32,000 nt of DNA, taken from the NCBI GenBank assembly GCA_963701845.1, contig CAVPBF010000004.1:571853-603852 (forward strand), in the 5' to 3' direction. Position numbers and translations under genes: made by a program. The DNA is from an uncultured delta proteobacterium (GTDB taxonomy: Bacteria > Desulfobacterota > Desulfobaccia > Desulfobaccales > 0-14-0-80-60-11). The notes beneath the pieces were generated by a model, which was given only the letters and a program-made list of their open reading frames with translations, made no database searches and was not told the DNA's origin. Positions 8,485 through 23,218 of this stretch are shown piece by piece (position 1 is the first letter of the stretch; every line of letters starts with the position of its first letter).

Positions 8485-8751
8485 ATGTCAGTACCCGCAT
8501 CTACCGGAGGCATCGGCCGGACCTTGATTGTTGGCATCGGTGGCTGTGGTGCCGAGGTAATCAAGAGGGTACGTCGGTTTCTCATCGACCATTTCGGTTG
8601 TTTTGAGAATATCCCTATTGTCCGGTTTCTTTGCCTCGATACCGATCCTCATTCGTTTCGCATGCTGGCCCAAGAAGTTGAGGAAGGCATCTGTCGGCTT
8701 CGGAGAGCTTTGACGTCCGTATCCCTGACGCTTCTGAGTTTATTATGGTGA
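8485..8751 (+). pseudogene. N-terminal fragment of a tubulin/FtsZ-like GTPase (Tubulin_2-like)
   Basis: TLIVGIGGCGAEVIKRVRRFL...VRFLCLDTDP resembles the G-loop start of prokaryotic tubulin-like conflict-system GTPases. Only about 60-80 aa are present before the frame breaks. Confidence 0.5.
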
Positions 8752-11022
8752 AACTACAACATAGAACATCTTGGCGTAACCTCTTAAGGACCTTCTGGAG
8801 GGGGAGGTTGAGGCCACGATGGCAGGATTATCAGTGGTCATTTATTGGCGGAATAGCTCTTGGGTCATTATTTTTGGGCGTTTGGGGATTCCAAATTTAT
8901 TTTTCGTCGAAAAATGAATTGCGCTCTGTTTCTGACCTGATCTATTTGGCTTTGCAGTTGTTCAATTTGAATTCCGGGGCGGTTACTGGGCCGAAACCAT
9001 GGCAGTTGGAGGTGGCAAGATTGTCAGCCCCGACGATAACCGCCTATGCCGCCGTAAAGGCCTTGGCAGTGATCTTTCACGAGCAGATTAAACTCATTCT
9101 CCTAAAATTTCTCAAGGGCCATGTCATAGTATGTGGTATGGGCAACAAGGGCTTCTTGCTGGCCAAGGGGTTTTATGATCAAGGCTACCGCGTAGTGGTA
9201 ATCGAACAAAATAAGGATAACCCCAGGATTGCGCTATTCAGAGAACATGGTGCCATTATCATAGTCGGCAATGCTGCAGATAGAGAAATGCTGAAAAAGG
9301 CCCGGGTTCGTGAGGCAAAATACCTCCTTGCCGTATGTAAAGAAGATGGAGATAACGCCCAAATAGCCATCTATGCTCAGGAACTTATCAATTGCCTCAC
9401 CAAGCATCCCTCCAGCAACATAGTGACCTGTCTGGTACATATTACGAACCCCGAACTCTGCAATCTTCTAAAAGAGCAAGAGATTTTGGCCGGAAAGGTC
9501 GATTTATTCCGGATGGAATTTTTTAATGTCTTTGAAAGCGGTGCGAGAGAATTGATAAATGAATTCCCCGGGTTCACGGAACTGGCCGAGGAAGCGCCAC
9601 ACTTGATGGTGGTTGGCCTGGGATCATTGGGCACAAGTCTAATAATTCGCGCTGCCTTGAATTGGAGATTGGCTCGGGGAAACCATGATAAAAAACTGCG
9701 CATCACCATGATAGACAAAGATGCAGTCCAGAAAAAGGAGTACCTGGACTGGCAGTACCGCCAGCTTAATGATTTCTGGGATCTTACTCCGGTGCCTGTG
9801 GAAATTAACTCACCAGAATTTCTCCAGGGGAAGTTCCTCTCAGAGAGTCATGACTTTTATTTCCTGTCCTGCGTATATGTCTGTCTTGATAATGATTCTG
9901 TTGCGCTCACTGCTGGGTTGGCAGTTTATCAGCATCTCAGAGAACGAAAAATCCCTATAGTAGTTCAGATGAGCCATGATGCCGGACTGGCTTCGCTCTT
10001 GCGAGTTGGGGGTGCCGAGAAAGGCAGCTTCGAGAACCTGCATGCTTTTGGGTTGTTTGATCGAACCTGCACGCCTGACCTGCTCTTTCGCGGGCACCCA
10101 CGAGACTCTATCCAAGGCTATCCATCGGGACTACGTTCGTAACCATGAAAATTTGGGACTAATCATAGAGACCAATGCTTCGTTAGCTTCCTGGGAAGAT
10201 TTGTCTGAGGACCTTAAAGAATCGAACCGTCGTTCAGCCGATGAAATCGGCAGGAAATTGCGAGCAGTCCACTGCGAGGTAGAGCGACTGACGGATTGGA
10301 ACGCCGAATTATTTGAATTCACGCCGGAAGAAATAGAAGTAATGGCCAAAATGGAACACCATAGCTGGATGAACCAACTGAATAAAGAGGGCTGGACGTT
10401 TGCATCGGGACCAAAGGACCTGAAAAAGAAAACCCATCCAGCGTTGGTAATATGGGAGGGACTCTCCAAAGATTTTAAGGATAAAAATCGTGAAAGTGTC
10501 CGTAAAATCCCCGTCCTTCTGGCCGGAGTCGGCTTTCAAGTTCACCGCAAGTGGCCTAATATTCGAGAGAAACTGGCTCGCTATATCCATGAGGAATATC
10601 TCAAGACCCAGCGGGAATGGGGTGAGACCCGGGAGACCAATCCTCACATGGTTCCATGGGAACAACTTCCTGAAAACATTAAGGACTCAAACCGCAATCA
10701 AGCTGACGACGTTAATCACAAACTCAGTGCCATCGGTTGCGGCCTCGAGAGGTTAGCTCCGGCGACTCGTCCTTTTCAATTTAGCCCTGATGAAATAGAA
10801 TTCTTGGCCAGGATGGAGCACGATCGCTGGATGGCAGAGAAAATTCATGATGGCTGGGTTTACGCTCCCGGGCCAAAAGCCCCGGGGAAAAAGACCAATC
10901 CTTATTTACTTCCTTGGGAACGCCTATCAGAAGATATTAAAGAGTTGGATCGCGTCCCGGTTCTTAAACTACCTGATTTTCTTGTCAAAGTAGGGTTACA
11001 GATCTTTCGTTTTAAAGAATAG
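8745..11022 (+). pseudogene. Membrane-anchored TrkA-N (NAD-binding) / tandem RyR-domain protein, one frameshift near 10088
   Basis: Has N-terminal hydrophobic helices. Two Rossmann GxGxxG segments are present (VIVCGMGNKGFLLA, MVVGLGSLGTSL). The frame switches between ...CTPDLLF and GTHETLSKAIHRDY. Two RyR-like units follow (EIEVMAKMEHHSWMNQLNKEGWTF...KNRESVRKIP and EIEFLARMEHDRWMAEKIHDGWVY...ELDRVPV). Confidence 0.7.
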
Positions 11023-11166
11023 AAAGGTTTATTCCCGAGTATGTCGTTATTGAAGTGACCTTGGTCTACCTTGCATTAAACAAGAGGATTGGTCGCCAAA
11101 AAGGAATTTCTTCGGGATCGGACCTCGCACCTCATCAATAATAAATAATTTATCTGGAGGGTATTG

Positions 11167-12102
11167 ATGTTACAAAGTGATGATTTTAATCAATCCTCAA
11201 TATCTAGTAAAAAAAAACCCGCTATTGAGACGATTATTGATACCCATGTTCATCTCGTGACCTTAAACCTTCCTGGAGTGACTTTGGATCAGGCTCCTGA
11301 TGGAACCTCCTTTCAAAGTCCGCCCGAGCTACTTGCAAAGGTGATCCAGACTGAAATGCAAGAAGCGAACATCGAACACGTCCTGGGTATGCCTAGTCCA
11401 ACGGCGGATGAGAATGATCCACTTGGAGTTGCGGGTACGCGACATCTGGCTGCGTTGGTTCCGGGATTGCATCCGGTCGGCTTTGCCAATCCGGAGCGCA
11501 TCGATGAGAAACATCTCGAAAGGGTCGAGGAATCGCTGAGACTTGGTGACGTGATTGCCATTAAGGCGTACCTCGGCTATTTACACCATTACCCCGATAG
11601 TCCTGGTTATCATCCCTATTATCGGCTGGCAGCCAAGTATAAAATTCCGGTAATCTTTCATACGGGAGATACTTATTCCCATCTAGCCAAGCTCAAGTAC
11701 GCTCATCCCTTGACAATTGATGAGGTGGCGGTGGACTTTCCAGAAACCAACTTCGTTATCGCTCACTTGGGGAACCCCTGGTTAGCCGACACGTCCGAAG
11801 TGGTTTACAAGAACAATAAACCAGGAATCAGAGAGAATGTTTGGGCTGATCTCTCGGGCCTCATGGTTGGGTCTGCATCCGATTATGAGAATTATCGTCA
11901 AGAAGGATACTTCGAGGATTTAGGCAAAAAGGTGTGGGAGTTAATCGATTTCACGGAACGGCCTGATCGTTTCTTATTCGGAAGCGACTGGCCATTGTCC
12001 CCGATGAAGGTTTATAGAGACTTTATCGGCGAGCTAATTCCGGAATCATATCACAAAGCGGTGTTTTACGATAACGCCAAGGCTTTGTTTAAGCTCGTTT
12101 AA
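11167..12102 (+). CDS. Amidohydrolase-2 (TIM-barrel metal-dependent hydrolase) family protein
   Basis: Contains IIDTHVHL (HxH), IFHTGD, AHLGNPW and FGSDWP motifs. A GGAGG lies 6 nt upstream of the ATG at 11167 (the ORF is open from a TTG at 11164). Confidence 0.75.
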   Translation: MLQSDDFNQSSISSKKKPAIETIIDTHVHLVTLNLPGVTLDQAPDGTSFQSPPELLAKVIQTEMQEANIEHVLGMPSPTADENDPLGVAGTRHLAALVPGLHPVGFANPERIDEKHLERVEESLRLGDVIAIKAYLGYLHHYPDSPGYHPYYRLAAKYKIPVIFHTGDTYSHLAKLKYAHPLTIDEVAVDFPETNFVIAHLGNPWLADTSEVVYKNNKPGIRENVWADLSGLMVGSASDYENYRQEGYFEDLGKKVWELIDFTERPDRFLFGSDWPLSPMKVYRDFIGELIPESYHKAVFYDNAKALFKLV

Positions 12103-12141
12103 CTTATGGATCTTCTCGGAGTCGGTCCATTGAGAGACTTA

Positions 12142-12287
12142 GGTGGCTGCACGTACAAGGAAGGGGTGTCCTTGGGGAAGTTCGCGGCACCGGAGGACGA
12201 CGGCCGCTTCGCTGAGATGTTGTGCGATGCCACCATCGCCTGGTGCTGCTCATGAAGGGCGTGAGCCAACGTCTGGAGAAGAAATGA
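12142..12287 (+). pseudogene. GC-rich 3' fragment of a second deoxyhypusine-synthase-like gene
   Basis: GGCTYKEGVSLGKFAAPEDDGRFAEMLCDATIAW, then after a frameshift LLMKGVSQRLEKK. This aligns with the C-terminus of the 12700-13782 product (SGCTYKEGVSWGKFLPIEEGGKFAEVLCDATIAWPILLKAVTQRIDKR). Confidence 0.75.
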
Positions 12288-12491
12288 ATTTGTAGCGCCG
12301 GCGCCCGCCGGCGAAGGAGCCACCGAGGGCGGCGATACTACATTCACTCTTTTTTCCTATCGTCCGCCGGGGAGCCCCGCCCGGTAAGCCAAGCCTGGCA
12401 AATGGGAGTCCGGGGAATTGACTGTCCTGATGGTCTGGGGCGGCAAGATCTTCTTGGCGCCAACCGGCACCTTAGCGTAATTTATAAAAAA

Positions 12492-12520
12492 TTGACTTCC
12501 CAATGGAGGTAAGTTAATTT
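12492..12520 (+). promoter_or_regulatory. Possible sigma70-type promoter for the DHS-like operon
   Basis: TTGACT, a 17-nt spacer, then TAATTT, about 180 nt upstream of the ATG at 12700. Confidence 0.3.
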
Positions 12521-12699
12521 AGCTGGATGATTAAGACTATAGTGCACTGCGGTGAACAGCCGCCTGGAGAAGGACATTGTCGACATCAATGCGGCCCTGT
12601 TCGCCAATCTATAGACCCTCATCATGAGCGGCCGCAAGCGTGTCCTGCCATCAAAGTAACAACCTGCCAGACTTCTCAAATCAAATTTAAGGAAAAAAC

Positions 12700-13782
12700 A
12701 TGCGGAGAAAAGCTATAGAATTCCACGATGGAGCCAAAGATGGTCTCAAGCCGTTGGTTCCTTTGGATTTGAATAACATTCACGATTCTGATGAATTGCT
12801 TAAAGCAATGAGCAGCACTGCTTTTGGGGGGCGTTCGTTGGGGGAAGCGGCTGATGTGCTCACCGAAATGGTAAGGGACCCCGATTGTTTAACTGTGGGT
12901 ACCTTTTCTGGTGCCATGAGCGTGGCCAAAATGGGATTGCTCATTTGTGAAATGATCGACCGCGGTTGGCTTAAAGCGGTAGTCTCAACAGGAGCACTGA
13001 TAGCTCACGGATTTATTGAAACCCTTGGCCGGGCACACTACAAATGTCCGGCAAATCGGTCGGATAGGGAATTATATTTACAGGGTTACAACCGCATTTA
13101 TGACACCCTGGAGATGGAAACCAACCTAGATTACGCTGAGGCCATTTTTCGGGAAGTTTTGAGCGGCTTGGACCGAAATCAGGTCTGGTCCTCCCACAGC
13201 CTTTGCAGGGAATTAGGAAGATATCTTGCAGACCACACCACCAGTCCCGGGATTTTGCGGAATGCTTACTTGAAGGGAGTGCCGGTGTTTATTCCGGCTT
13301 TTACCGACTCGGAAATGGGACTGGATATGGCCACCTATATGATGCGGGATGCTTTGCGTAATGGGAAAGAAATTCCCGCCGCCTTGACCGATTGTTCCCT
13401 GCAATTCAACCCGTTCCTGGATTTAGGAGCCTATACCCAGATGGTGTTACCCGCGAAGAGGCTGGGAATTTTCACCATCGGCGGCGGCGTACCTCGAAAC
13501 TGGGGGCAACAGATGGCTCCTTATCTGGAATTGCTTAATTCCCGTTTAAATATAGAGGTTCCGGAGCTTCGCTTCCATTATGGAGTAAGGCTCTGCCCGG
13601 AGCCAGCCCACTGGGGGGGCCTAAGCGGTTGTACATATAAGGAGGGGGTTTCCTGGGGAAAATTTCTCCCTATAGAAGAGGGGGGGAAATTCGCCGAGGT
13701 TCTTTGCGATGCCACTATCGCCTGGCCTATTCTTCTTAAGGCAGTTACTCAGCGAATTGATAAAAGACAAAAAAATAAATAG
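12700..13782 (+). CDS. Deoxyhypusine synthase (DHS)-like NAD-dependent enzyme
   Basis: TFSGAMSVAKMGLL...VVSTGALIAHGFIE...RIYDTLE...VPVFIPAFTDSEMG...IGGGVPRNW...EGVSWGKF follows the DHS family pattern. This includes the SWGK lysine position. Confidence 0.8.
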   Translation: MRRKAIEFHDGAKDGLKPLVPLDLNNIHDSDELLKAMSSTAFGGRSLGEAADVLTEMVRDPDCLTVGTFSGAMSVAKMGLLICEMIDRGWLKAVVSTGALIAHGFIETLGRAHYKCPANRSDRELYLQGYNRIYDTLEMETNLDYAEAIFREVLSGLDRNQVWSSHSLCRELGRYLADHTTSPGILRNAYLKGVPVFIPAFTDSEMGLDMATYMMRDALRNGKEIPAALTDCSLQFNPFLDLGAYTQMVLPAKRLGIFTIGGGVPRNWGQQMAPYLELLNSRLNIEVPELRFHYGVRLCPEPAHWGGLSGCTYKEGVSWGKFLPIEEGGKFAEVLCDATIAWPILLKAVTQRIDKRQKNK

Positions 13783-13788
13783 GTTAGC

Positions 13789-14766
13789 TTGCGGGCTAAC
13801 TTATCTTTAATGGCTGCCAGTGAAATGACCTTAGAACAAAAATCTAGTGAAAATGACGGTGCTCAAGTTATCAATGTCAGACATATCTTCAATGATATGG
13901 TTGATGAGTATGACGATTTATATGATTTATGGTATAGCTACCTCTTTGGTGAGATAGAGCGGGTTATCTTGGAGGAATTCGAGCTAACCTCTAATACCGG
14001 TCTGAATCCCCTCGCTATTGATGTGGGCTGCGGGACTGGCATACAATCCATCACCTTAGCTGCATTGGGATATAAAGTTGTCGGCTTCGACATTGCCGAT
14101 AAACTTATCGAGCAAGCTAAAGTTAAAGTGCAACGAGCCGGAAATAAGCACGAATTTCTGGACATTGATTTTTTGATTGCCGATGGTGAAGCGTTACCTT
14201 TTGAGGATGCAGTCGCAGATTGTGTTAATTGCTGCGGTTCGACGCTCAGTTTTATCCCGAATTGGCGGCAAGCGCTCTCTGAAATGTCCAGGTGCCTTAA
14301 GCCTGGCGGCAGATTGATCCTGGAAGTTGAAGGCAAATGGAATTTTGACTTGTTTTGGGAAATTATCAATGCTATCGGTTTCAATGTCTTTGAGTATGAT
14401 GAACCCTTGCTGGATGCGCTCCAGCATCTCCGCCCGCCGTGGAATGTCGGGCACCATGTCGAATATCCCTTTAAATTGGAATCTGATGAAACCGTGACGA
14501 TGCCGCTAAGATTGTTTGCCGCCGCTGAACTCGAGAAAGAATTACAGCATGTCGGCTTGGTTCAAGTAAAGCGTTGGGGCCTGCATTCCTTGACCAATAT
14601 CATCCCCAGCACCATACTGCATGACTCTCGCCCAGGACCGCTGCTAAAAAAAATGTTTTCTCTTCTATCAAATATCGAGAGACGCTTTAACCAATTCCAA
14701 CCCTTGAACGCCTTCGGCTGCAGTCTTCTGGTAATTGCCGAAAAGAACTATGAGGTGGTTAAATGA
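13789..14766 (+). CDS. Class I SAM-dependent methyltransferase
   Basis: Contains motif I AIDVGCGTGIQS and post-I/II motifs VVGFDIA and LKPGGRLILEV. The start is uncertain (TTG 13789 or ATG 13810). The stop overlaps the next start (ATGA). Confidence 0.8.
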   Translation: MRANLSLMAASEMTLEQKSSENDGAQVINVRHIFNDMVDEYDDLYDLWYSYLFGEIERVILEEFELTSNTGLNPLAIDVGCGTGIQSITLAALGYKVVGFDIADKLIEQAKVKVQRAGNKHEFLDIDFLIADGEALPFEDAVADCVNCCGSTLSFIPNWRQALSEMSRCLKPGGRLILEVEGKWNFDLFWEIINAIGFNVFEYDEPLLDALQHLRPPWNVGHHVEYPFKLESDETVTMPLRLFAAAELEKELQHVGLVQVKRWGLHSLTNIIPSTILHDSRPGPLLKKMFSLLSNIERRFNQFQPLNAFGCSLLVIAEKNYEVVK

Positions 14767-16212
14767 CCGCTAATGGCCAAATAACTGAAAAGTTTGCGGA
14801 GATCGTTACCAAGGCGGCCCAATTTCTATGCGATAGTTATCATGATGGCAGTTGGGGTGCCACCAAGACCACGGCTATGACCATCTGGGCTTTGCAAGAA
14901 TGCGGGGTGGTGGGGAAGCATAAGGGTGTTTTTATCGAGGCCCTGGAGGAATTGATCGAAAAAGAAGGTACGGAGCTCCAAAAAGGACTCTCGTTTGATG
15001 AAGAAATCTGGGAGACGTCAGTGGTATTGATCGCCCTTGCCAAAGTAGATCAAGGGGAATTCAAAGAAAAAATAGAATTGATTAAAAAATGGCTCTTGTC
15101 ACAGATAAGTGAAACTGGGGATAATTTTAATGAAGAACCATGGGAAACCTTATGGGTTCTTACAGCATTATTTGAATCAGATCAAGTTGACGCTGATGAT
15201 TGGGAGATGGTTAAGAAGTGTATAAATTGGGTTTGGGACAAGAGGAATGCACAAGATGTTTTGATCTCTTTGCATAATATGGGGTTTTTACTAGCCGTAT
15301 TGAATTATGCAATAAACTATTCAATACGCAACCCTTCTTTTGATGACAGTGAAGAAATTGAATTGTACAAAAAAGCAGCCAATATTTGTAACAGTTATTT
15401 GATTAAGGAATTTCACGAAAATAAGAAAGCCGGTATGCTTTGGAGCAGCGAACCATGGAGTATCGGGCACATCCTGCATGGCATCACTGAATCTCCCCAG
15501 CGAATAAAATTTTTTAGAGAAGACAATTTAAATAAAGACATTATAAATTGGTATAAAGAAAGCTGGAATGATCCAACAGGGTTTGGCAGTGTTAAGAACA
15601 CGTGCGATACGTTAGTTGGACTGATGAAATATTACCTTAGTAGGGATGTTGAATACAAAAATGGGAGCCGATCCGAGGCAATAGACCGAATTGCAAAAAA
15701 TATTGTTTTAGAAGACGTGGATATACGATCCAAAAAAATGGTGGTATATCCTTTGTGGGGTAAAGGAGTAGAACCAAGAGAGAAAGAAATTGTTTTGTTG
15801 ATGCCGTTCAGTGAAAAATTTGATAAATTGGTAGATAGTATTAAAGAGATTACAAGCTTCAAAGAGCTCGAAGGATGGAGTGTGCGCAGGGCCGATGACA
15901 CATATGACGGAGAAGATGCCATTGATAATATATGGCGCCGTATCAATGCCGCGAGGGTTGTTATTGTGGAATTAACCCGTTTGCGTCCGGCTGTGATGTA
16001 CGAACTTGGGATTACACATACTACTAGGTAAAAAAGTTATTATGATAACTCAGTTTGATCCCAAAAAACTTCCGTTTAATTTAAGGAAACTCGATGTGAT
16101 AAGATATAAACACAATGATTTAAATGATGATGGTGGAAAAGAGAAATTCAAGGTTAAAATTCGTGACACCATAGTTCAAGTATTGAGAAGAAAAAAAGGT
16201 AAACTACAGTAG
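14763..16212 (+). pseudogene. alpha/alpha-toroid (prenyltransferase/terpene-cyclase-like repeat) protein fused to a TIR/nucleoside-2-deoxyribosyltransferase-like domain; 1-nt frameshift near 16020
   Basis: The N-terminus has repeats DGSWGATKTTAMTIWALQE, EIWETSVVLIALA and EPWETLWVLTALF. The C-terminus reads IVLLMPFSEKFD...ARVVIVELTRLRPAVMYELGITH, then in the next frame LLGKKVIMITQ...PFNLRKLDVIRY. Confidence 0.65.
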
Positions 16213-16358: not shown

Positions 16359-18161
16359 ATGCAAGTCTCTTCTCCCCCCTCCCCGCGCCTTGTTCTCCAT
16401 GTTGGCGTTACCGGTCACAGACCTTCCGGTCTTCAAGGAGGGGATGATGACATATTACGATCCAAAATTCGAGAAGTTCTATCGCTTATAGCTGGTGATG
16501 TTGAAAAAGTGTACAAGGCTTCTCCGGGAATATTCAGTTCTCTCCCTCCCATCTTGCGTCTCATATCTCCCCTGGCGGAGGGTGCCGACCGTATAGTCGC
16601 TGAAGAAGCTTTGGGTTTGGGATATGAACTCCAATGCCCTCTTCCCTTTGAACTCAGCCAGTACGAGCAGGATTTTGATTCTTCCGCGTCCCTTACTGAA
16701 TTTAGTTCCCTGCTGAGTCGAGCGACCACAATATTCGAATTAGATGGAGATCGTGAACAACGACGCTTGGCATATCAAGAGGTAGGCAGAACAGTTCTAA
16801 GCCAATCAGACATACTGGTTGCCATTTGGAATGGGAAGGAACCGCAGGGCCAAGGGGGTACAGGAGAGATCGTTCAAGAAGCCATCCAGAGAAAAATTCC
16901 TACCTGCTGGATTCAGGCCCAGAAGCCTCATCTTATAAATCTACTGGGATATTCGGGCAAACGGGAAAGACCCAGTTGGAATGAAGGGTTACCCCAATAT
17001 ATATCCAATCTGCTCTCTCTCCCCGCACTTAATCAGATTGGTTATGCAAGGAACAAAGAGAAATCCGACCTCAGCCAGGAATTCTTTTCAGAAACTGAAT
17101 GTAAAATAAATGTTGGGTTTCCCTTTAAGTTGTTTCGGGATTTATTGGGTGGAATGGGAATTAGCCGGCCGAAATTCAGAATGCCTGGTTTCGAAGAAGA
17201 AACGTTGGAAGAATGGCAAGAAGTCTGGAATACTTCGCCCGGACTGCCGTCATCCCTGATAGATCAGATAAATAGAGCATTTCTGCTCAAATTTGCGTGG
17301 GCCGATAAGCTGGCCAATTATTATGCTGATTTGTACAGAAGTTCTTTTATTGTTAACTATTTTTTAAGTGGCTGTGCGGTATTAGCTGCCTTGTTGGCTT
17401 ACCCGCTGGAGCTGGGCCATGCAGGTCAAGAATGGTTGGTTCTGACGGAAATTATCTTAATTTCTTTCATTATTCTGACCACATGGTATGGCAAGAGGAA
17501 GCGCTGGCACGAGCGATGGATCGATTACCGCTTTCTCGCCGAGCAATTACGACAAATGCGATTCTTGGCCCCCCTTGGGATATTACTCCCATCCTTTAGC
17601 ATCCCTGCACATCATGCAAATAATGATCTTCACAATAACTGGATAAACTGGTATTTTCGCGCCTCAGCGCGGGAAGCGGGGCTGCCCAATGTCCGAATTG
17701 ACCAGGCATACCTTGAAGCTGGTCGAACACTTCTCACGATAGGAGAGGTAGAAGGACAAATCCATTACCATGAAATAAACGCCAGCCGCTTTCATATTCT
17801 ATCTCATCGACTACATCATCTGGGATTATTGTTATTTGCATTGACTGGTATAGCCTGTTTATCGCACCTTTATTATCACGGTGAATACAGCCGGTGGCTA
17901 ACTTTACTCTCAGGAGTGCTGCCAGCTTTTGGAGCCGCCTTCGCGGGCATCCTGTTCCAGGGAGAGTTTCAGCGCCTGGCTCAACGTTCCGAAGCCATGA
18001 CCAGAGAGTTGGGGCGGATCAATAACAATCTGACAATCCTTCCCGAATTATCTCACGAAAATCTCTGCCTCATGGCCAACGAGGTCGCCAATATTATGAT
18101 AACTGAAGTACTCGATTGGAGGATTTTACTACATGACAGACCGTTGAATCTTCCAGGATGA
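16359..18161 (+). CDS. SLOG-like Rossmannoid domain fused to two SLATT-type 2TM modules (predicted ligand-gated membrane effector)
   Basis: The N-terminus has VGVTGHR...SPLAEGADRIVAEEAL...SDILVAIWNGKEPQGQGGTGEIV (LOG/SLOG-like GGxGT motif). Two hydrophobic helix pairs lie at about 17345-17490 and 17815-17960. The first is followed by an amphipathic RWHERWIDYRFLAEQLRQ and the second by an FQRLAQRSEAMTREL segment. Confidence 0.7.
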   Translation: MQVSSPPSPRLVLHVGVTGHRPSGLQGGDDDILRSKIREVLSLIAGDVEKVYKASPGIFSSLPPILRLISPLAEGADRIVAEEALGLGYELQCPLPFELSQYEQDFDSSASLTEFSSLLSRATTIFELDGDREQRRLAYQEVGRTVLSQSDILVAIWNGKEPQGQGGTGEIVQEAIQRKIPTCWIQAQKPHLINLLGYSGKRERPSWNEGLPQYISNLLSLPALNQIGYARNKEKSDLSQEFFSETECKINVGFPFKLFRDLLGGMGISRPKFRMPGFEEETLEEWQEVWNTSPGLPSSLIDQINRAFLLKFAWADKLANYYADLYRSSFIVNYFLSGCAVLAALLAYPLELGHAGQEWLVLTEIILISFIILTTWYGKRKRWHERWIDYRFLAEQLRQMRFLAPLGILLPSFSIPAHHANNDLHNNWINWYFRASAREAGLPNVRIDQAYLEAGRTLLTIGEVEGQIHYHEINASRFHILSHRLHHLGLLLFALTGIACLSHLYYHGEYSRWLTLLSGVLPAFGAAFAGILFQGEFQRLAQRSEAMTRELGRINNNLTILPELSHENLCLMANEVANIMITEVLDWRILLHDRPLNLPG

Positions 18162-18580: not shown

Positions 18581-19619
18581 CCTGCCTTAGCGCAAAGATT
18601 CTTGAGAACTTCACGCCGATCTATGAACTGCCCTGTCTGTCTCTTTCCTTTTTGGTCCACATAGGAATGCCAGAAGACCCAAGGTTTGGTCTTATCCCGC
18701 TCCAAAAACCTGCGCGACAGGATATGGTAAATTTTCTGAGTCATGGGCACTTTCCTTGGAGTCAAGTGGCCACCTCGTTTCTTGCGGGTGCAGAGCACCA
18801 CATACCGCTGTTCGAGGTTGATGTCTTCCCAAACAAGGCGGTTAATTTCGCTGACCCCATGGTATCCCTCAAAAGCCAGAGATAATCCTGAACTTCTGGA
18901 TCAGCCGGAGCGATCAAATCGTCGATGTCCTCTGGTGATGGTACATAGTTAAGCCTCTTGGCCATGGGCAAGAAACTTAGACCGATTACGGGATTCTCGG
19001 TAAGCCACCCCTTCTTTTTCCCAAAATTAAAGGTGGCCTTGAGATAGCGAATCTCCTTATTTGCAGTAAAGACGGAAACGCTGCTCCTCTCCAAGATGAA
19101 ACACTCCACCATATCGCGGGAAATTTGGCTGCACGTAAGCCCTTTCCACTGCCTAATCCACCTCCGAGCCGATACTTGATAGGTCAGATAGTAACTTTCG
19201 GAGTTATAAGCCTCAACATGGTCTAATCTCCTATTTACCAGATCCAAGAAATCCATGTCGGTCGGGGTTGTCTCCGTCGGCCTCTCTGGTGGTGGGTTCA
19301 GTATCTCCTCCGGTTTTTGGATTTCGACCAGCTTGGCCTCTCTTTTGGTTTGGATATAAGGCCGTTTGGTTTCCATGCCCTTCGGCATGCCGGGGCTTCG
19401 CTGATGGATCACTGCAACATTCCGCTTGGGTCCATCCAGCGTATCCTGGGCCATGAGAACCGAACTACTACCGAAATCTATCTCCACTCCATTAACCGAT
19501 CTGAGTTCGAGGCGATGGCGGTTTATGAACAGGCCAGGGGAAAGTCACACTCAGGTCGGAAAATCCACACTCAGATTCATACTCAGCAAAAGGAAAAGGG
19601 CTTAAGCCCGATGACCTAA
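18500..19619 (+). pseudogene. Tyrosine integrase with inverted central segment and a frameshift
   Basis: On the + strand the N-terminus is MSIYFQKGRGWKHDFTLHGKRYTSRY (18500-18577). The + strand C-terminus is RPFGFHALRHAGASL...GHENRTTTEIYLHS (about 19356-19619). The middle (about 18585-19355) is only readable on the - strand (IQTKREAKLVE...ANKEIRYLKATFNF...LLRDTMG / SEINRLVWEDINLEQRYVVLCTRKKRGGHLTPRKVPM...LCAKAGV), with a frameshift near 18830. Confidence 0.75.
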
Positions 19620-20574: not shown

Positions 20575-20832
20575 ATGGCACCTCCAGACCTTTCTCAGGT
20601 ATTGAAAGAACTCCGGGATCTCCGGAAGGAACTCCGGGCGCCGGCAAAGCGGCTGCTTACCGTCGATGAGACGGCGCATTACTTGGGCCTGGCGCCGAAG
20701 ACCGTGAGAAACTCCTTAGGCCCCAAGGCGGCGCGGGCTTTCCCGGTCAAGCCTGTGCGAGTGGCAGGACGGGTGCTATTTCGGCTGGAGGATCTCCAGA
20801 AGTACGTCGACTCCTTGGAGGCAGATGCATGA
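20575..20832 (+). CDS. AlpA/excisionase-type HTH DNA-binding protein
   Basis: LLTVDETAHYLGLAPKTVRNSL, small size, and a position directly upstream of the primase gene. Confidence 0.7.
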   Translation: MAPPDLSQVLKELRDLRKELRAPAKRLLTVDETAHYLGLAPKTVRNSLGPKAARAFPVKPVRVAGRVLFRLEDLQKYVDSLEADA

Positions 20833-20944
20833 AAGCCTTGCTAAAACTCCGGCTTCGCTTCTGGGAACTTTTCACCTATGGAAAATTCCGGTCATGGGCG
20901 AGCTTGGCCCTGGATCGGGCGGTGGTGGCCTTGGAGGCGATGGA

Positions 20945-23218
20945 ATGAACCTCGACAAAATCCCCGTGGATCTGCGCCAGCTAAATCAGTGGGTTATCTG
21001 GCGCTTGGAGGACCGTGATGGAAAGAAAACAAAAGTTCCATATCAGGCCTTAAACCCTCAAGAAATGGCCAGCAGCACCTCAAGAGCTACGTGGGCCAGC
21101 TTTGAACAGGCTATTGCAGCGGCAAAATGTAATGGAAGTTCGGGGATCGGCTTCGTGTTCACGGGGGAAGACCCGTATGTGGGGATCGATATTGATCATG
21201 CAATCGAAGCCGGCGAAATTCATCCCCAGGCGTTGGAAGTTATGCAAGACCTAAATTCTTTTGGAGAATTTTCCCAGAGCAAAACAGGAATTCATATTAT
21301 TGTTAAAGGCAAACTACCACCCGGACGCCGGCGTAAAGGCCATTTGGAAATGTATGATTGTGGCCGGTATTTCTGCATGACCGGGCACCACATAGAAATC
21401 ACCCCCCGCACCATTGAGTCTCGCCAAGCCGAATTGGAGGCCCTCCATGCCCGCGTTTTCGGAAAGGAAAAGAGAGAGGCAAAAACCTCCCCTCCAACCC
21501 TGGGTTTAAGTATGGCCGATTCGGAGATTATCACCAAAGCCAGGACAGCTAAAAATGGAAATAAATTTGACCGACTTATGCAGGGTGATACGAAGGATCA
21601 GAATGGCGATGATAGTGCGGCGGGTCTTGCCCTGTGTTCAATCTTGGCTTTTTGGACCCAAGACCCTCATCAGATCGACCGCATTGTCCGGGCAAGCGCC
21701 CTCTATCGGGATAAATGGGATCGTCAGGACTACCGAGATAGGACTATTAGCAAGGCCCTGGGCGGCGTAACCGAGACCTACCAAGGACCCCGGGGCGAAC
21801 CTCAGGCGAATCAGGCCCCATCCCTTCCGCCAGCGTCAGAAGCCCCGAAGCCTGAAAAAAGGGAAGAGTCCTCAAAGCGGATTATGGGCGTTCCCGATTA
21901 TGGGCTGACCGATCAGGGCAACTCCTACCGCCTCAAGGACCAATGGGGCAAAGAAGTAAGGTGGTGCGATCCGTGGGGGAAGTTTCTTTGCTGGGATGGA
22001 AATCGCTGGGCTATAGATCAGATTCGAAAAATTGAGGTCATGGCCATCGAAACCGTCAAGAGCATCTACTCGGAAGCCTCGCAAATTCGAGACAAGGATG
22101 TCCGGAAGGCCACGGCGGATCATGCCAAGCGCAGCGAAGCCGATAACAAACGGAAGGCGATGCTCTCCAGCGTCAAATGTCTTCTGCCCATTCGCCCGGA
22201 AGAACTCGACCGCAACCCCTATTTGTTCAATGTCTTAAGCGGAGTGATCGACCTCCAGACCGGCGAACTCCGGCCGCATTCCCCAGGAGACTATATTACC
22301 AAGCTGGCGCCGGTCCATTTTGATCCGAAAGCAAAATGCCCTATATGGTGGAGTTTCCTTTCCAAAATTCTCCCGGGGCCAGCCATAGAGTATTTGCAAA
22401 AAGCCATCGGGTACTCTGCAACCGGGGCCACCATAGAGCAAGTTTTTTTTCTGCTCTTCGGCGCCGGCGACAACGGCAAGACGGTTTTCCTCGAGACCAT
22501 CGGCGGCATCCTGGGAGACTATGCCAAGGAAACGGACCCCGAAACCTTCATGGCCAAGAAACACGGCGGGGGCATACCAAACGACCTGGCAGCACTCCGC
22601 GGCGCCCGGTTTGTGAAATCCGTAGAAACTTCAGGCGGCCGACGCATGTCCGAAGTCCGCATTAAGCAGATGACCGGCGGCGACACCTTGACCGCCCGCT
22701 TCCTGCATGCCGAATGGTTTGAGTTTCGGCCGGAGTTTAAGTTATGGCTGGCCACCAACCACAAGCCGGTGATTAAGGATTCGACCCATAGCATGTGGCG
22801 CCGGGTGCGCCTCATTCCTTTCGAGGTTCAAATCCCTAAGGAACAGCAGGATAAGCAACTGACCGAAAAGTTGAGAGACGAATATCCGGGCATTCTTAAT
22901 TGGATCATCGAAGGCGCCCTACTGTGGCAGCACGAAGGTCTGAAACCCCCCGACACCATCCAAGAGGCAACCCAGAGCTACCGGGATGAAATGGACGACC
23001 TGGCCGACTTCCTGAGCGAATGTTGCACCCTGGCACCGGACGATAGAGCCACAGCGACAGAGGTGTTTAATGCTTACCAGGAGTGGGCGAAAGCGGCAGG
23101 GGAAAAGAAACCGATGAGCAAGAGAGGCTTGGGCGTGGCCCTGGGGGAGCGGGGATTTCAAAAAGGTAGAAGCGGAAGCATGAGATTTTGGCAGGGCATC
23201 GGGATTAATGGGGAATGA
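20945..23218 (+). CDS. Prim-Pol / D5-N / P4-family primase-helicase
   Basis: QWVIWRLE...KVPYQ...GIGFVFTGEDPYVGIDIDH (Prim-Pol), DDSAAGLALCSILAFW (PriCT-like) and Walker A LLFGAGDNGKT. The ORF is open from 20825, but a GGAGG lies 7 nt upstream of the ATG at 20945. Confidence 0.85.
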   Translation: MNLDKIPVDLRQLNQWVIWRLEDRDGKKTKVPYQALNPQEMASSTSRATWASFEQAIAAAKCNGSSGIGFVFTGEDPYVGIDIDHAIEAGEIHPQALEVMQDLNSFGEFSQSKTGIHIIVKGKLPPGRRRKGHLEMYDCGRYFCMTGHHIEITPRTIESRQAELEALHARVFGKEKREAKTSPPTLGLSMADSEIITKARTAKNGNKFDRLMQGDTKDQNGDDSAAGLALCSILAFWTQDPHQIDRIVRASALYRDKWDRQDYRDRTISKALGGVTETYQGPRGEPQANQAPSLPPASEAPKPEKREESSKRIMGVPDYGLTDQGNSYRLKDQWGKEVRWCDPWGKFLCWDGNRWAIDQIRKIEVMAIETVKSIYSEASQIRDKDVRKATADHAKRSEADNKRKAMLSSVKCLLPIRPEELDRNPYLFNVLSGVIDLQTGELRPHSPGDYITKLAPVHFDPKAKCPIWWSFLSKILPGPAIEYLQKAIGYSATGATIEQVFFLLFGAGDNGKTVFLETIGGILGDYAKETDPETFMAKKHGGGIPNDLAALRGARFVKSVETSGGRRMSEVRIKQMTGGDTLTARFLHAEWFEFRPEFKLWLATNHKPVIKDSTHSMWRRVRLIPFEVQIPKEQQDKQLTEKLRDEYPGILNWIIEGALLWQHEGLKPPDTIQEATQSYRDEMDDLADFLSECCTLAPDDRATATEVFNAYQEWAKAAGEKKPMSKRGLGVALGERGFQKGRSGSMRFWQGIGINGE

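What the first reader, a model, noticed from the sequence alone, without database searches (positions are those of the whole stretch)
16359..18161. SLOG-like sensor fused to two tandem 2TM (SLATT-like) modules
The roughly 190-aa N-terminus has LOG/SLOG hallmarks: a GxTGHR start, AEGADRI, and GGTGEIV where LOG proteins carry GGxGT. The C-terminal 300 aa contain two separate helix pairs. Each pair is followed by an amphipathic, Arg/Glu-rich helix. A duplicated 2TM module on one polypeptide suggests a pseudo-dimeric pore gated by ligand binding to the cytosolic domain. The gene is intact, unlike several of its neighbours.
Basis: partly seen in the sequence, partly recalled or inferred. Interest (0 to 1): 0.7.

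Follow-up and report, generated by a model that had tools for sequence, protein, structure and literature searches.

The report
TIR-linked SLOG sensor with membrane-pore domains
This intact gene encodes a membrane protein whose cytoplasmic nucleotide-sensor (SLOG) domain is fused to two pore-type (SLATT) helical hairpins; its relatives almost always sit beside TIR immune-signal genes, so it is probably the cell-killing arm of an uncharacterised Thoeris-like anti-phage system, although here its partner genes are missing or broken.

Summary
ORF 16359-18161(+) encodes 600 aa with the quoted motifs and four hydrophobic helices in two pairs. An AlphaFold model (pLDDT 92-93) shows an N-terminal SLOG fold, with best PDB match YpsA (E 1.3e-7, TM 0.62-0.69), followed by DprA, LOG and ThsA-SLOG. 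Helix pair 1 passes the SLATT_1 and DUF4231 thresholds. Pair 2 matches Pfam SLATT_1 below threshold here but above it in a homolog. The two modules are not detectably similar to each other, so a duplication is not shown. The family is large: at least 884 proteins and at least 553 species genomes. NCBI annotates its members only as 'DUF4231', and PADLOC has no model for it. In 82 homolog loci, 47 have a TIR gene and 25 have a RyR-domain gene within 6 kb; 58 have at least one. Standalone copies of this SLOG lie in TIR-caspase operons. The best reading is a Thoeris-like effector gated by a TIR-made ADP-ribose-derived signal. The window has no TIR, its TrkA_N-RyR partner is frameshifted, and a frameshifted TIR-related DrHyd gene lies directly upstream. 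I rate it a new variant of a known kind. It is distinct from the '4TM SLOG' candidates of a 2025 preprint. No experiment supports the proposed mechanism.

The parts
16359..18161 (+). Complete ORF, 600 aa: a SLOG domain, a linker and two SLATT-type 2TM modules
   Evidence: ORF listing. Homologs, mostly aligned over about the full length. AF2 full-length model with pLDDT 91.9 and pTM 0.91.
16359..16946 (+). N-terminal SLOG (YpsA-like Rossmannoid) domain, residues 1-196; predicted cytoplasmic ligand sensor
   Evidence: Alternating beta/alpha elements. Foldseek top hit is YpsA 2nx2 (E 1.3e-7, TMq 0.62); DprA, ShosA, TM1055/LOG, MCP, TRPM N-terminal domains and ThsA-SLOG all follow with probability 0.8-1.0.
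16404..16421 (+). GVTGHR loop after strand 1 (residues 16-21); G16, G19, H20 and R21 are invariant in the family
   Evidence: Alignments A1 and A3. G16, T18, G19 and H20 are also kept in the standalone SLOGs of TIR-caspase operons.
16575..16595 (+). AEGADRI motif (residues 73-79); A73, G75 and D77 are invariant
16854..16880 (+). GGTGEIVQE motif (residues 166-174); G166, G167 and T168 are invariant and E174 is at least 90% conserved
17250..17576 (+). SLATT module 1 (residues 298-406): long helix, TM1 328-350, TM2 355-378, then the basic amphipathic helix 383-406
   Evidence: Pfam DUF4231 over residues 314-402, 31.4 bits (GA 24.7). NCBIfam SLATT_1 over 313-403, 58.3 bits for the whole protein (cut-off 41). 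56 of 57 family members hit DUF4231.
17703..18134 (+). SLATT-type module 2 (residues 449-592): long helix, TM3 487-506, TM4 513-534, then helices 537-559 and 566-592
   Evidence: Pfam SLATT_1 over residues 464-582, E 0.003-0.007, below GA. The same region in homologs matches profile positions 6-122 of 122 at 23-29 bits, one of them above GA. 27 of 57 members hit at E<=0.01.
8745..11022 (+). TrkA_N-RyR gene split into two overlapping ORFs (frameshift at about nt 10087, RyR module duplicated). The intact form is a recurrent neighbour of this family.
   Evidence: Pfam TrkA_N 68 bits and RyR 108 bits. The two ORFs together match single 600-730-aa proteins next to the family in 17 loci.
14763..16212 (+). 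Gene immediately upstream: alpha/alpha-toroid-like N-terminus plus a nucleoside-2-deoxyribosyltransferase-like (DrHyd) C-terminus, frameshifted at about nt 16020. It is not a recurrent partner in other loci.
   Evidence: Frames shown. Full-length homologs are 463-495 aa. Nuc_deoxyrib_tr hits in 8 of 10 sampled homologs, 2 above GA. No homolog in the 82 loci.
18762..19619 (.). Integrase remnants on both strands, marking the edge of the low-GC island and occupying the position where the closest relatives carry a TIR gene
   Evidence: Phage_int_SAM_5 and Phage_integrase fragments. GC profile. A TIR gene sits at +1 in L001, L002, L003 and L020.

Best explanation
The gene encodes the effector of a Thoeris-like, TIR-based nucleotide-signalling defence system. 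The architecture is shown: a cytoplasmic YpsA-like SLOG domain with a strictly conserved pocket (GxTGHR, AEGxD, GGT), followed by two SLATT-type transmembrane hairpins with N-in/C-in topology. It is also shown that family members are strongly and repeatedly linked to TIR-domain genes and to RyR-domain genes, and that standalone copies of the same SLOG subfamily lie in TIR-caspase operons. The rest is inferred. On phage infection a neighbouring TIR protein would convert NAD+ into an ADP-ribose-derived signal, probably a cADPR isomer. The SLOG domain would bind that signal, as ThsA's SLOG binds 3'cADPR. Binding would drive rearrangement or oligomerisation of the four SLATT helices into a membrane-permeabilising assembly, causing growth arrest or death of the infected cell. 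The host RyR-domain partners (TrkA_N-RyR fusions or ~90-108-aa RyR-only proteins) probably bind or hydrolyse the same signal, acting as a second sensor or effector or as an off-switch. In this particular window the system looks incomplete. No TIR gene lies within 32 kb, the TrkA_N-RyR partner is frameshifted and sits 5 kb away, and integrase debris occupies the position where close relatives carry the TIR gene. The intact gene is therefore either an orphan effector or is served by a signal generator elsewhere, possibly the adjacent (frameshifted) DrHyd-domain gene.
For: Architecture: SLATT and TM helices; SLOG fold, including the ThsA-SLOG/3'cADPR structure 7uxs at probability 0.98. Pocket conservation across the fused and standalone forms. 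TIR linkage: a TIR gene is immediately downstream in L001 and L002 (Pfam TIR_2 at 80.7 bits). A TIR HMM finds a TIR within +-3 genes in 43 of 82 loci and within 6 kb in 47 of 82. In the RefSeq-annotated Caballeronia plasmid the order is 'DUF4231 protein' - 'TIR protein' - WD40. Standalone SLOG homologs (31-34% identical) lie in TIR-caspase-SLOG(-TIR) operons on B. subtilis pBS72 and on a Rhizobium binae plasmid. RyR linkage: 25 of 82 loci carry a RyR gene, and 58 of 82 carry TIR and/or RyR (40 of the 52 loci with full flanks). Literature: RyR/PF02026 domains bind or cleave 2'/3'cADPR (PMC13232231). [quoted passage not shown] Status in the window.
Against: There is no experimental evidence for this family. 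No TIR is present in the window. About 29% of loci show neither TIR nor RyR within 6 kb. Partner position and strand vary widely (+1, +2 on the opposite strand, -2, -3), so many of these are not simple operons. The TIR partners are large multidomain proteins (fused to TPR, FGE-sulfatase, DUF4189 or PDZ), unlike typical short ThsB proteins; they could be NADase effectors rather than signal makers, a caveat the preprint itself raises for its unverified types. PADLOC has no model for the family. The analogous 'SLOG and 4TM' candidates tested in the preprint gave no defence in E. coli (its Table S2). The conserved His, Arg, Asp and Glu residues in the pocket are equally compatible with catalysis. 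I had no model coordinates and could not inspect the pocket or the helix packing.
Confidence: 0.6

Rival explanations
1. The SLOG domain is an enzyme rather than a sensor. It would be a LOG/YpsA-type N-glycosidase, or an ADPR-derivative-processing enzyme, anchored at the membrane by the SLATT helices. It would degrade or mature the TIR product (signal turnover or signal generation) instead of gating a pore.
For: The invariant polar residues H20, R21, D77, D151 and E174 sit in the pocket motifs. LOG-clade SLOGs are glycosidases, and some SLOGs are predicted to process ADPr derivatives (PMC9503650, section 3.4.4). The standalone SLOG in TIR-caspase operons has no effector domain of its own, so it may be a modifier.
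Against: The closest structural relatives (YpsA, DprA, ThsA-SLOG) are binding modules, not enzymes. The invariant R21 of the fused family is not kept in the standalone forms. Fusion to SLATT, a domain repeatedly found as the terminal effector of nucleotide-signalling systems, fits a sensor-effector arrangement better. The LOG motif spacing (PGGxGTxxE, from my own knowledge) is not reproduced: here the Glu lies six residues after the Thr.
Confidence: 0.15
2. The family is not an immune effector. It would be a physiological signalling or ion-homeostasis module, a ligand-gated membrane protein working with the TrkA_N(NAD-binding)-RyR membrane protein to couple NAD-metabolite levels to ion flux or stress responses.
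For: There is tight pairing with TrkA_N-RyR genes in 17 mostly acidobacterial loci, several of which have no TIR within 6 kb (L008, L011, L013, L014, L017). TrkA_N is a classical regulator domain of K+ transport (Pfam description). The family is common in free-living soil phyla on large chromosomal contigs.
Against: TIR, STAND NTPases (nSTAND1, NACHT), TPR, caspase and WD40 neighbours are typical conflict-system components. The window copy lies in a low-GC island next to integrase and primase genes. Other members are on mobilizable plasmids. RyR domains now have a demonstrated role in Thoeris signalling (PMC13232231).
Confidence: 0.12
3. It is a CBASS-type or other non-TIR effector. The SLOG domain would sense a cyclic oligonucleotide or another nucleotide made by a SMODS/CD-NTase or a different generator, and the TIR neighbours would be co-resident NADase effectors.
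For: SLATT was named for its association with SMODS as well as SLOG, and SLATT proteins serve as effectors in CBASS (preprint 10.64898/2025.12.03.692087, section 8). TIR domains can be effectors rather than signal makers (same preprint, Limitations).
Against: No recurrent nucleotidyltransferase cluster appeared among neighbours within +-3 genes of the 82 loci; the largest clusters are TIR/TPR/RyR, Band_7 and ChlI-like ATPases. The same SLOG subfamily occurs with TIR+caspase, an arrangement resembling the known TIR-signalling type IV Thoeris.
Confidence: 0.08

Closest known systems
Type VII Thoeris effector ThsH (TIR + SLATT; Yirmiya et al., bioRxiv 10.64898/2025.12.03.692087)
   Same: Both are SLATT-type transmembrane effectors encoded beside a TIR gene. 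ThsH toxicity is triggered by a TIR-made nucleotide (canonical cADPR), and it is predicted to oligomerise in the membrane.
   Different: ThsH is described only as a SLATT protein whose ligand pockets form between protomers; no SLOG domain is mentioned. The window protein has a dedicated ~196-aa SLOG sensor and two non-identical SLATT modules on one chain. I could not obtain ThsH sequences, so homology of the SLATT parts was not tested.
Type I Thoeris effector ThsA (SIR2-SLOG)
   Same: It has a SLOG domain that binds the TIR product 3'cADPR. The BcThsA SLOG/3'cADPR structure 7uxs matches the window's N-terminal model at probability 0.98.
   Different: ThsA's output domain is a SIR2 NADase rather than a membrane module. 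The structural similarity is much weaker than to YpsA (TMq 0.41 against 0.62), so this is a different SLOG clade.
YpsA / DUF1273 (PF06908), B. subtilis, PDB 2nx2
   Same: It is the best structural match (E 1.3e-7, TM 0.62/0.69, 186 aligned columns). A standalone relative of the window's SLOG is annotated DUF1273 by NCBI and hits Pfam YpsA at E 0.0023.
   Different: YpsA is a soluble single-domain protein. None of the 57 family members reaches even E 0.01 against the Pfam YpsA model, and sequence identity to 2nx2 is 16%.
'4TM SLOG' / 'SLOG and 4TM' putative Thoeris effectors (same preprint, Tables S1 and S2; unverified, no defence seen in E. coli)
   Same: The layout on paper is the same: a SLOG-like cytoplasmic part plus four TM helices, encoded next to a TIR gene.
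   Different: The effector found next to a TIR of that clade (L089 5210-6004; its TIR is 61% identical to a Table S1 entry) is only 264 aa. It has a short 'LLGGGDST' SLOG-like region and four contiguous TM helices, and it shows no detectable similarity to the window protein (no HMM hit; BLAST E 5.7). Its TIRs are short and of a different clade. This is therefore an analogous family, not the same one. I could not obtain the exact effectors tested in the preprint.
SLATT families of Burroughs et al. 2015 (Pfam SLATT_1-6, DUF4231; NCBIfam NF0336xx)
   Same: Module 1 passes the NCBIfam SLATT_1 and Pfam DUF4231 thresholds, and module 2 matches Pfam SLATT_1 across the whole profile. [quoted passage not shown]
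   Different: Here two different SLATT-type modules sit in tandem on one polypeptide behind a YpsA-like SLOG that no library model recognises. The 2015 paper is not in the held library, so I could not check whether it depicts exactly this architecture.

Membership tests
SLATT (2TM effector) - module 1 | Profile match above the curated threshold to a SLATT-family model | tested here: met
   NCBIfam NF033634 SLATT_1 scores 58.3 bits against a cut-off of 41 (best stretch 313-403). Pfam DUF4231 scores 31.4 bits against 24.7. 56 of 57 homologs hit DUF4231.
SLATT (2TM effector) - module 1 | Two adjacent TM helices joined by a short loop and flanked by cytoplasmic helices | tested here: met
   TM helices 328-350 and 355-378, a 4-residue loop, and the basic stretch KRKRWHERW after TM2.
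SLATT (2TM effector) - module 2 | Profile match above the curated threshold to a SLATT-family model | tested here: inconclusive
   The window scores 16.9-17.9 bits against Pfam SLATT_1 (GA 26.3) and 19.4 against NCBIfam SLATT_4 (cut-off 55). The homologous region of P0061 scores 28.9 bits, above GA, and four others tested score 16-24 bits (three of them 23-24), covering most or all of the profile (positions 6-8 to 107-122 of 122). 27 of 57 members hit at E<=0.01.
Tandem duplication of one SLATT module | Detectable homology between module 1 and module 2 | tested here: not met
   hhalign of family sub-alignments (residues 296-412 against 445-600) gives probability 0.13 and E 0.44. The alignment is shallow (Neff 3.3), so an ancient duplication is not excluded.
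SLOG superfamily | Rossmannoid three-layer alpha/beta fold that most resembles known SLOG structures | tested here: met
   Domain model with pLDDT 93.4. Foldseek hits: YpsA E 1.3e-7 with TM 0.62/0.69; DprA, ShosA, TM1055, MCP, TRPM2/4/5 N-terminal domains, ThsA-SLOG and type-II LOG all at probability 0.8-1.0.
SLOG superfamily | Conserved Gly-rich loop after strand 1 and a GGxGT/GGT-type motif before a late helix (feature list from my own knowledge of Burroughs 2015 and PMC9503650, section 3.3.3) | tested here: met
   GVTGHR follows strand E12-19, and GGT(166-168) precedes helix 168-177. All are invariant in 57 sequences.
SLOG superfamily | Sequence-profile match to a curated SLOG family (Pfam LOG, YpsA, DprA, STALD, TPALS, LSDAT and others) | tested here: not met
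   No Pfam or NCBIfam hit on residues 1-300, even at E<=1 for the window and E<=0.01 for 57 homologs. No PDB sequence hit with the single sequence or with profiles.
YpsA / DUF1273 family (PF06908) | Match to the family HMM above the gathering score | tested here: not met
   None of 57 members hit. The standalone Rhizobium relative reaches only 18.4 bits against GA 27.7. The window domain is related in fold and works like a YpsA-clade SLOG, but it is not a member of the Pfam family.
Thoeris-type defence system | A TIR-domain (ThsB-like) gene encoded next to the effector | tested here: not met
   In the window, no TIR hit at E<=10 in six-frame translation of all 32 kb, and no remnant of the relatives' TIR genes. 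In the family, 47 of 82 loci have a TIR within 6 kb and 43 of 82 within +-3 genes. The feature is therefore met for the family but not for this locus.
Thoeris-type defence system | The effector carries a domain that binds the TIR-made signal | not testable with these tools
   A SLOG fold with a conserved pocket is present. Ligand binding needs biochemistry.
Thoeris-type defence system | Confers phage resistance that depends on both genes | not testable with these tools
   No experiment was possible. PADLOC-DB v2 has no model that matches.

The most novel reading that the evidence does not exclude
The family defines an undescribed multi-component Thoeris type that is widespread in soil and sediment phyla. 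A TIR protein would make a cADPR-type signal, and a SLOG-(DUF4231+SLATT_1) protein would be the membrane-breaching effector, sometimes as a heteromer with a tandem paralog whose pocket is degenerate. Host-encoded RyR-domain proteins (TrkA_N-RyR membrane proteins or ~90-108-aa RyR-only proteins) would act as a built-in signal sensor or signal-degrading regulator. That would be the host counterpart of the phage RyDEP enzymes. In the window the TIR may have been replaced by a DrHyd-domain (TIR-related) generator encoded immediately upstream.
Probability: 0.25. Interest if true: 0.75.

Novelty: new variant of a known kind. Interest (0 to 1): 0.55.

Why it matters
TIR-based nucleotide signalling (Thoeris) is being expanded rapidly, and eleven types had been validated by late 2025. 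This family would add an effector that combines the type I sensor (SLOG) with a type VII-style output (SLATT) on one chain. It occurs in at least 553 species, mostly poorly studied environmental phyla that were probably under-sampled by screens centred on E. coli and Bacillus relatives. Public records annotate its members only as 'DUF4231' or hypothetical. Its recurrent pairing with host RyR-domain genes is timely, because RyR domains were shown in 2026 to bind and cleave cADPR isomers in phages. A host-side role in regulating the same signals would be new and is directly testable. For this genome specifically, the result is more modest: an intact effector gene in a decaying, horizontally acquired island.

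Tried and rejected
(1) Sequence-level identification of the N-terminal domain failed. Pfam, NCBIfam and PADLOC scans and three PDB sequence or profile searches found nothing. Only structure prediction with Foldseek, and tblastn against plasmids, gave answers.

(2) Internal duplication of the SLATT modules is not supported by hhalign.

(3) I tried several routes to test whether the family equals the preprint's 'SLOG and 4TM' effectors. The exact TIRs were not in the protein collection. One related TIR contig lacked the effector. Reading three parts of Table S1 showed that only a few rows are '4TM SLOG'. A related TIR locus (L089) finally gave a 264-aa effector that is unrelated in sequence. I rejected identity with that class, with the caveat that the tested proteins themselves were not seen.

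(4) Actinobacterial plasmid hits (Streptomyces, Nonomuraea) turned out to be standalone SLOGs, not 4TM fusions.

(5) The exact-sequence look-ups for the window protein found no encoding contig and no accession or name, so the source organism remains unknown.

(6) Burroughs et al. 2015 is not in the held library, so statements about it rest on later papers that cite it and on my own knowledge.

(7) The promoter and terminator scan around the gene was uninformative: 8 promoter-like sites against 4.3 +/- 2.4 expected.

(8) The window's amidohydrolase, deoxyhypusine-synthase-like, methyltransferase and toroid-DrHyd genes have no counterparts in the 82 homolog loci. I rejected them as conserved system components. 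The PADLOC 'mad2' hit of the methyltransferase covers only the generic SAM-MTase region.

(9) No tRNA was found in the window to mark an integration site.
Full report
OBSERVATION. The window has an ATG-initiated ORF at 16359-18161 on the + strand encoding 600 aa. The quoted motifs are present: GVTGHR at residues 16-21, AEGADRI at 73-79 and GGTGEIV at 166-172. A hydropathy scan finds exactly four strongly hydrophobic segments arranged as two pairs, 328-350 with 355-378 and 487-506 with 513-534. Each pair is followed by an Arg/Glu-rich stretch. The ORF is a real gene. A search of 5.8 billion proteins returned at least 884 homologs, and most of the 120 best listed are aligned over 93-100% of the query and are about 560-800 aa long, most near 600. 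In a 57-sequence alignment, 38 columns are invariant, clustered in the N-terminal motifs and around the TM helices.

WHAT THE PARTS ARE. Module 1 (residues ~298-406) passes curated thresholds. NCBIfam SLATT_1 scores 58.3 bits (cut-off 41) and Pfam DUF4231 scores 31.4 bits (GA 24.7). 56 of 57 family members hit DUF4231.

Module 2 (~449-592) matches Pfam SLATT_1 over most of the profile, but at only 17-18 bits in the window copy. The same region scores 28.9 bits (above GA) in one homolog and 16-24 bits in four others tested, and 27 of 57 members hit at E<=0.01. I accept module 2 as SLATT-type on family-level evidence. The two modules are not detectably similar to each other (hhalign probability 0.13). 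'Two different SLATT-type modules in tandem' is therefore the accurate description, and 'duplication' is not shown.

No sequence library recognises the N-terminal ~196 residues. AlphaFold2 with the family alignment gives a confident model: full length pLDDT 91.9 and pTM 0.91, domain alone pLDDT 93.4. It shows an alternating beta/alpha Rossmannoid domain followed by two long helical hairpins. Foldseek of the isolated domain against the PDB puts B. subtilis YpsA (2nx2) first (E 1.3e-7, TM 0.62/0.69). DprA, ShosA, TM1055, the Moco-carrier protein, the TRPM N-terminal domains, the 3'cADPR-bound ThsA SLOG domain (probability 0.98) and type-II LOG follow, and every hit with probability >=0.9 is a SLOG-superfamily member (the full-length search agrees).

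Independent sequence support comes from tblastn against plasmids. The domain alone hits ~160-aa proteins at 29-34% identity, one of which RefSeq annotates as 'DUF1273 domain-containing protein', i.e. the YpsA family. These standalone proteins keep the G-x-T-G-H, L-A-x-G-A-D, D151, W157 and G-G-T positions. The charge distribution places the SLOG domain and both post-hairpin helices in the cytoplasm: KRKRWHERW follows TM2 and the inter-helix loops are short.

GENOMIC CONTEXT IN RELATIVES. I fetched 82 loci containing family members: two by exact look-up and 80 from species-representative genomes, in which at least 553 stretches encode a relative. The phyla include Acidobacteriota, Thermodesulfobacteriota, Planctomycetota, Alphaproteobacteria, Gemmatimonadota, Verrucomicrobiota and Nitrospirota.

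An HMM built from Pfam-verified TIR_2 neighbours finds a TIR domain within +-3 genes in 43 loci and within 6 kb in 47. The TIR proteins are varied: TIR-DUF4189, TIR-PDZ, TIR-FGE-sulfatase and TIR-TPR. STAND NTPases (nSTAND1-WD40 and DUF4062-NACHT-TPR) also occur. A RefSeq-annotated plasmid of Caballeronia shows the order 'DUF4231 protein' - 'TIR protein' - 'WD40 protein'.

RyR-domain (PF02026) genes occur in 25 loci, either as 600-730-aa TrkA_N-RyR proteins (17 loci) or as 88-108-aa RyR-only genes. 58 of 82 loci have TIR and/or RyR, as do 40 of the 52 loci with at least 4 kb on both sides. I did not compute a matched background. The preprint cited below finds Thoeris systems in about 8% of genomes, so I infer these frequencies are far above chance.

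The standalone SLOG homologs lie in TIR - caspase - SLOG (- TIR) operons on B. subtilis pBS72 and on a Rhizobium binae plasmid. This arrangement resembles type IV Thoeris with an extra gene. In the three closest chromosomal relatives (L002, L003, L020) the gene immediately upstream is a divergent paralog. It has the same SLOG-plus-4TM architecture (family HMM E 1e-17 to 1e-19) but degenerate pocket motifs.

CONTEXT IN THE WINDOW. The gene lies at the 3' edge of a low-GC block, 0.38-0.51 between about 8 and 20 kb against mostly 0.51-0.66 in the flanking sequence. Downstream are integrase fragments on both strands, then an excisionase-like ORF and a D5-type primase-helicase. No TIR domain is detectable anywhere in the 32 kb, and there is no remnant of the relatives' TIR genes.

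The window does carry the other recurrent partner. ORFs 8745-10142 (TrkA_N) and 9976-11022 (RyR) together align to single TrkA_N-RyR proteins of the homolog loci, with a frame change at about nt 10087 and a duplicated RyR module.

Four same-strand genes lie between this partner and the SLATT gene: an Amidohydro_2 protein, a deoxyhypusine-synthase-like protein, a SAM methyltransferase and a 422+68-aa gene. None has a counterpart in the other 82 loci. The last of them is immediately upstream and is one frameshifted gene, since full-length homologs are 463-495 aa. Its C-terminal domain is nucleoside-2-deoxyribosyltransferase-like: 8 of 10 sampled homologs hit it, two above GA, and elsewhere it is fused to AbiTii, cNMP-binding or PP2C domains. 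This DrHyd superfamily is grouped with TIR and SLOG in one clade, and some members are NADases or ADP-ribosyl cyclases (PMC9503650, section 3.3.3). I cannot say whether the frameshifts are genuine or are assembly errors.

MECHANISM. The following are shown: the architecture, the conserved pocket, and the linkage to TIR and RyR genes. [quoted passage not shown]

The following is inferred. A TIR partner makes an ADPR-derived signal, the SLOG pocket binds it, and the SLATT helices rearrange or oligomerise to permeabilise the membrane, giving abortive infection. Host RyR proteins would sense or degrade the same signal. I had no coordinates to examine helix packing, and higher-order oligomerisation is likely by analogy with ThsH.

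For this locus, the effector is intact but its partners are absent or disrupted. It may be an orphan, it may be served in trans, or, speculatively, it may be coupled to the adjacent DrHyd gene.

COMPARISON WITH WHAT IS KNOWN, AND NOVELTY. SLOG-SLATT association is a known concept; it is in the domain's name. TIR+SLOG and TIR+SLATT systems are both validated. This particular family is annotated only as DUF4231 or hypothetical, has no PADLOC model, and is not among the eleven validated Thoeris types.

The 2025 preprint lists a putative 'SLOG and 4TM' effector class. It tested two examples in E. coli and saw no defence (Table S2). The effector I could retrieve next to a TIR of that clade is a 264-aa protein with no detectable similarity to the window protein, and its TIRs differ from those flanking this family. 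I therefore treat it as an analogous but separate family, with the caveat that I never saw the exact tested proteins. Overall I rate the finding a new variant of a known kind.

VERDICT. My confidence in the domain architecture is about 0.95, in the TIR/RyR linkage of the family about 0.85, and in the full sensor-to-pore defence mechanism about 0.6. Interest is 0.55. This is a credible, testable candidate for a further Thoeris-type effector with an unexplored host RyR connection, but it is conceptually anticipated and is represented here by an apparently incomplete locus.

Noticed in passing
window 8745-11022 (+): A TrkA_N-RyR gene is split into two overlapping ORFs by a frame change at about nt 10087. 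Its RyR module is present twice (10087-10548 and 10558-11010). Intact 600-730-aa versions sit next to SLOG-SLATT genes in 17 other loci. Host-encoded RyR domains in TIR-containing loci may relate to the recently described phage RyDEP cADPR glycosidases.
   Followed up: partly
window 14763-16212 (+): A frameshifted gene (at about nt 16020, right after a YELG motif) encodes an alpha/alpha-toroid-like N-terminal region with weak squalene-cyclase/TED similarity, fused to a nucleoside-2-deoxyribosyltransferase-like (DrHyd) domain. 1062 relatives were found. Elsewhere the DrHyd domain is fused to AbiTii, cNMP-binding, PP2C and PMT domains, which suggests a conflict-system module of its own.
   Followed up: partly
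L002 6141-7994, L003 1860-3713, L020 4951-6852: In the three closest chromosomal relatives, the gene directly upstream of the SLOG-SLATT gene is a divergent paralog. It has the same SLOG-plus-4TM architecture but lacks the GxTGHR, AEGAD and GGT pocket motifs. This suggests a heteromeric effector with one sensing and one non-sensing subunit, followed by TIR-DUF4189.
   Followed up: partly
L084 3638-5492 (B. subtilis pBS72); L086 2620-4989 (Rhizobium binae p4): TIR - caspase-family - standalone SLOG (- second TIR) operons occur on plasmids. They resemble type IV Thoeris (TIR + caspase-like protease) with an added ~160-aa YpsA-like SLOG gene of unknown role.
   Followed up: partly
window 18762-19619: Two integrase remnants lie on opposite strands and overlap in coordinates: an N-terminal SAM-like domain on the - strand (18762-19487) and a catalytic C-terminal fragment on the + strand (19317-19619). 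This suggests nested or rearranged mobile-element insertions at the island edge.
   Followed up: no
window 20575-23218 (+): An excisionase-like small ORF is followed by a 797-aa D5_N / NrS-1 polymerase HBD / Pox_D5 primase-helicase. A second mobile element (satellite- or prophage-like) therefore abuts the low-GC island.
   Followed up: no
window 11164-14766 (+): A same-strand trio of Amidohydro_2, a deoxyhypusine-synthase-like protein (249.6 bits) and a SAM methyltransferase lies between the TrkA_N-RyR and DrHyd genes. The methyltransferase hits PADLOC 'mad2' through its generic MTase region only. None of the three recurs near the family elsewhere, and their function in the island is unknown.
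   Followed up: partly
L089 5210-6684: A 264-aa protein with a short SLOG-like 'LLGGGDST' region and four contiguous TM helices overlaps a downstream short TIR gene. This is probably the preprint's unverified '4TM SLOG' Thoeris class. Its gene start may be mis-called, because about 600 nt upstream carry no called gene.
   Followed up: partly
L048, L053, L061, L073, L079 (+1 genes): In marine alphaproteobacterial loci the downstream gene is an FGE-sulfatase-domain protein whose N-terminus matches TIR_2 only weakly (E 4.9e-4 in L048). My TIR HMM did not count these, so the TIR association is probably underestimated.
   Followed up: no
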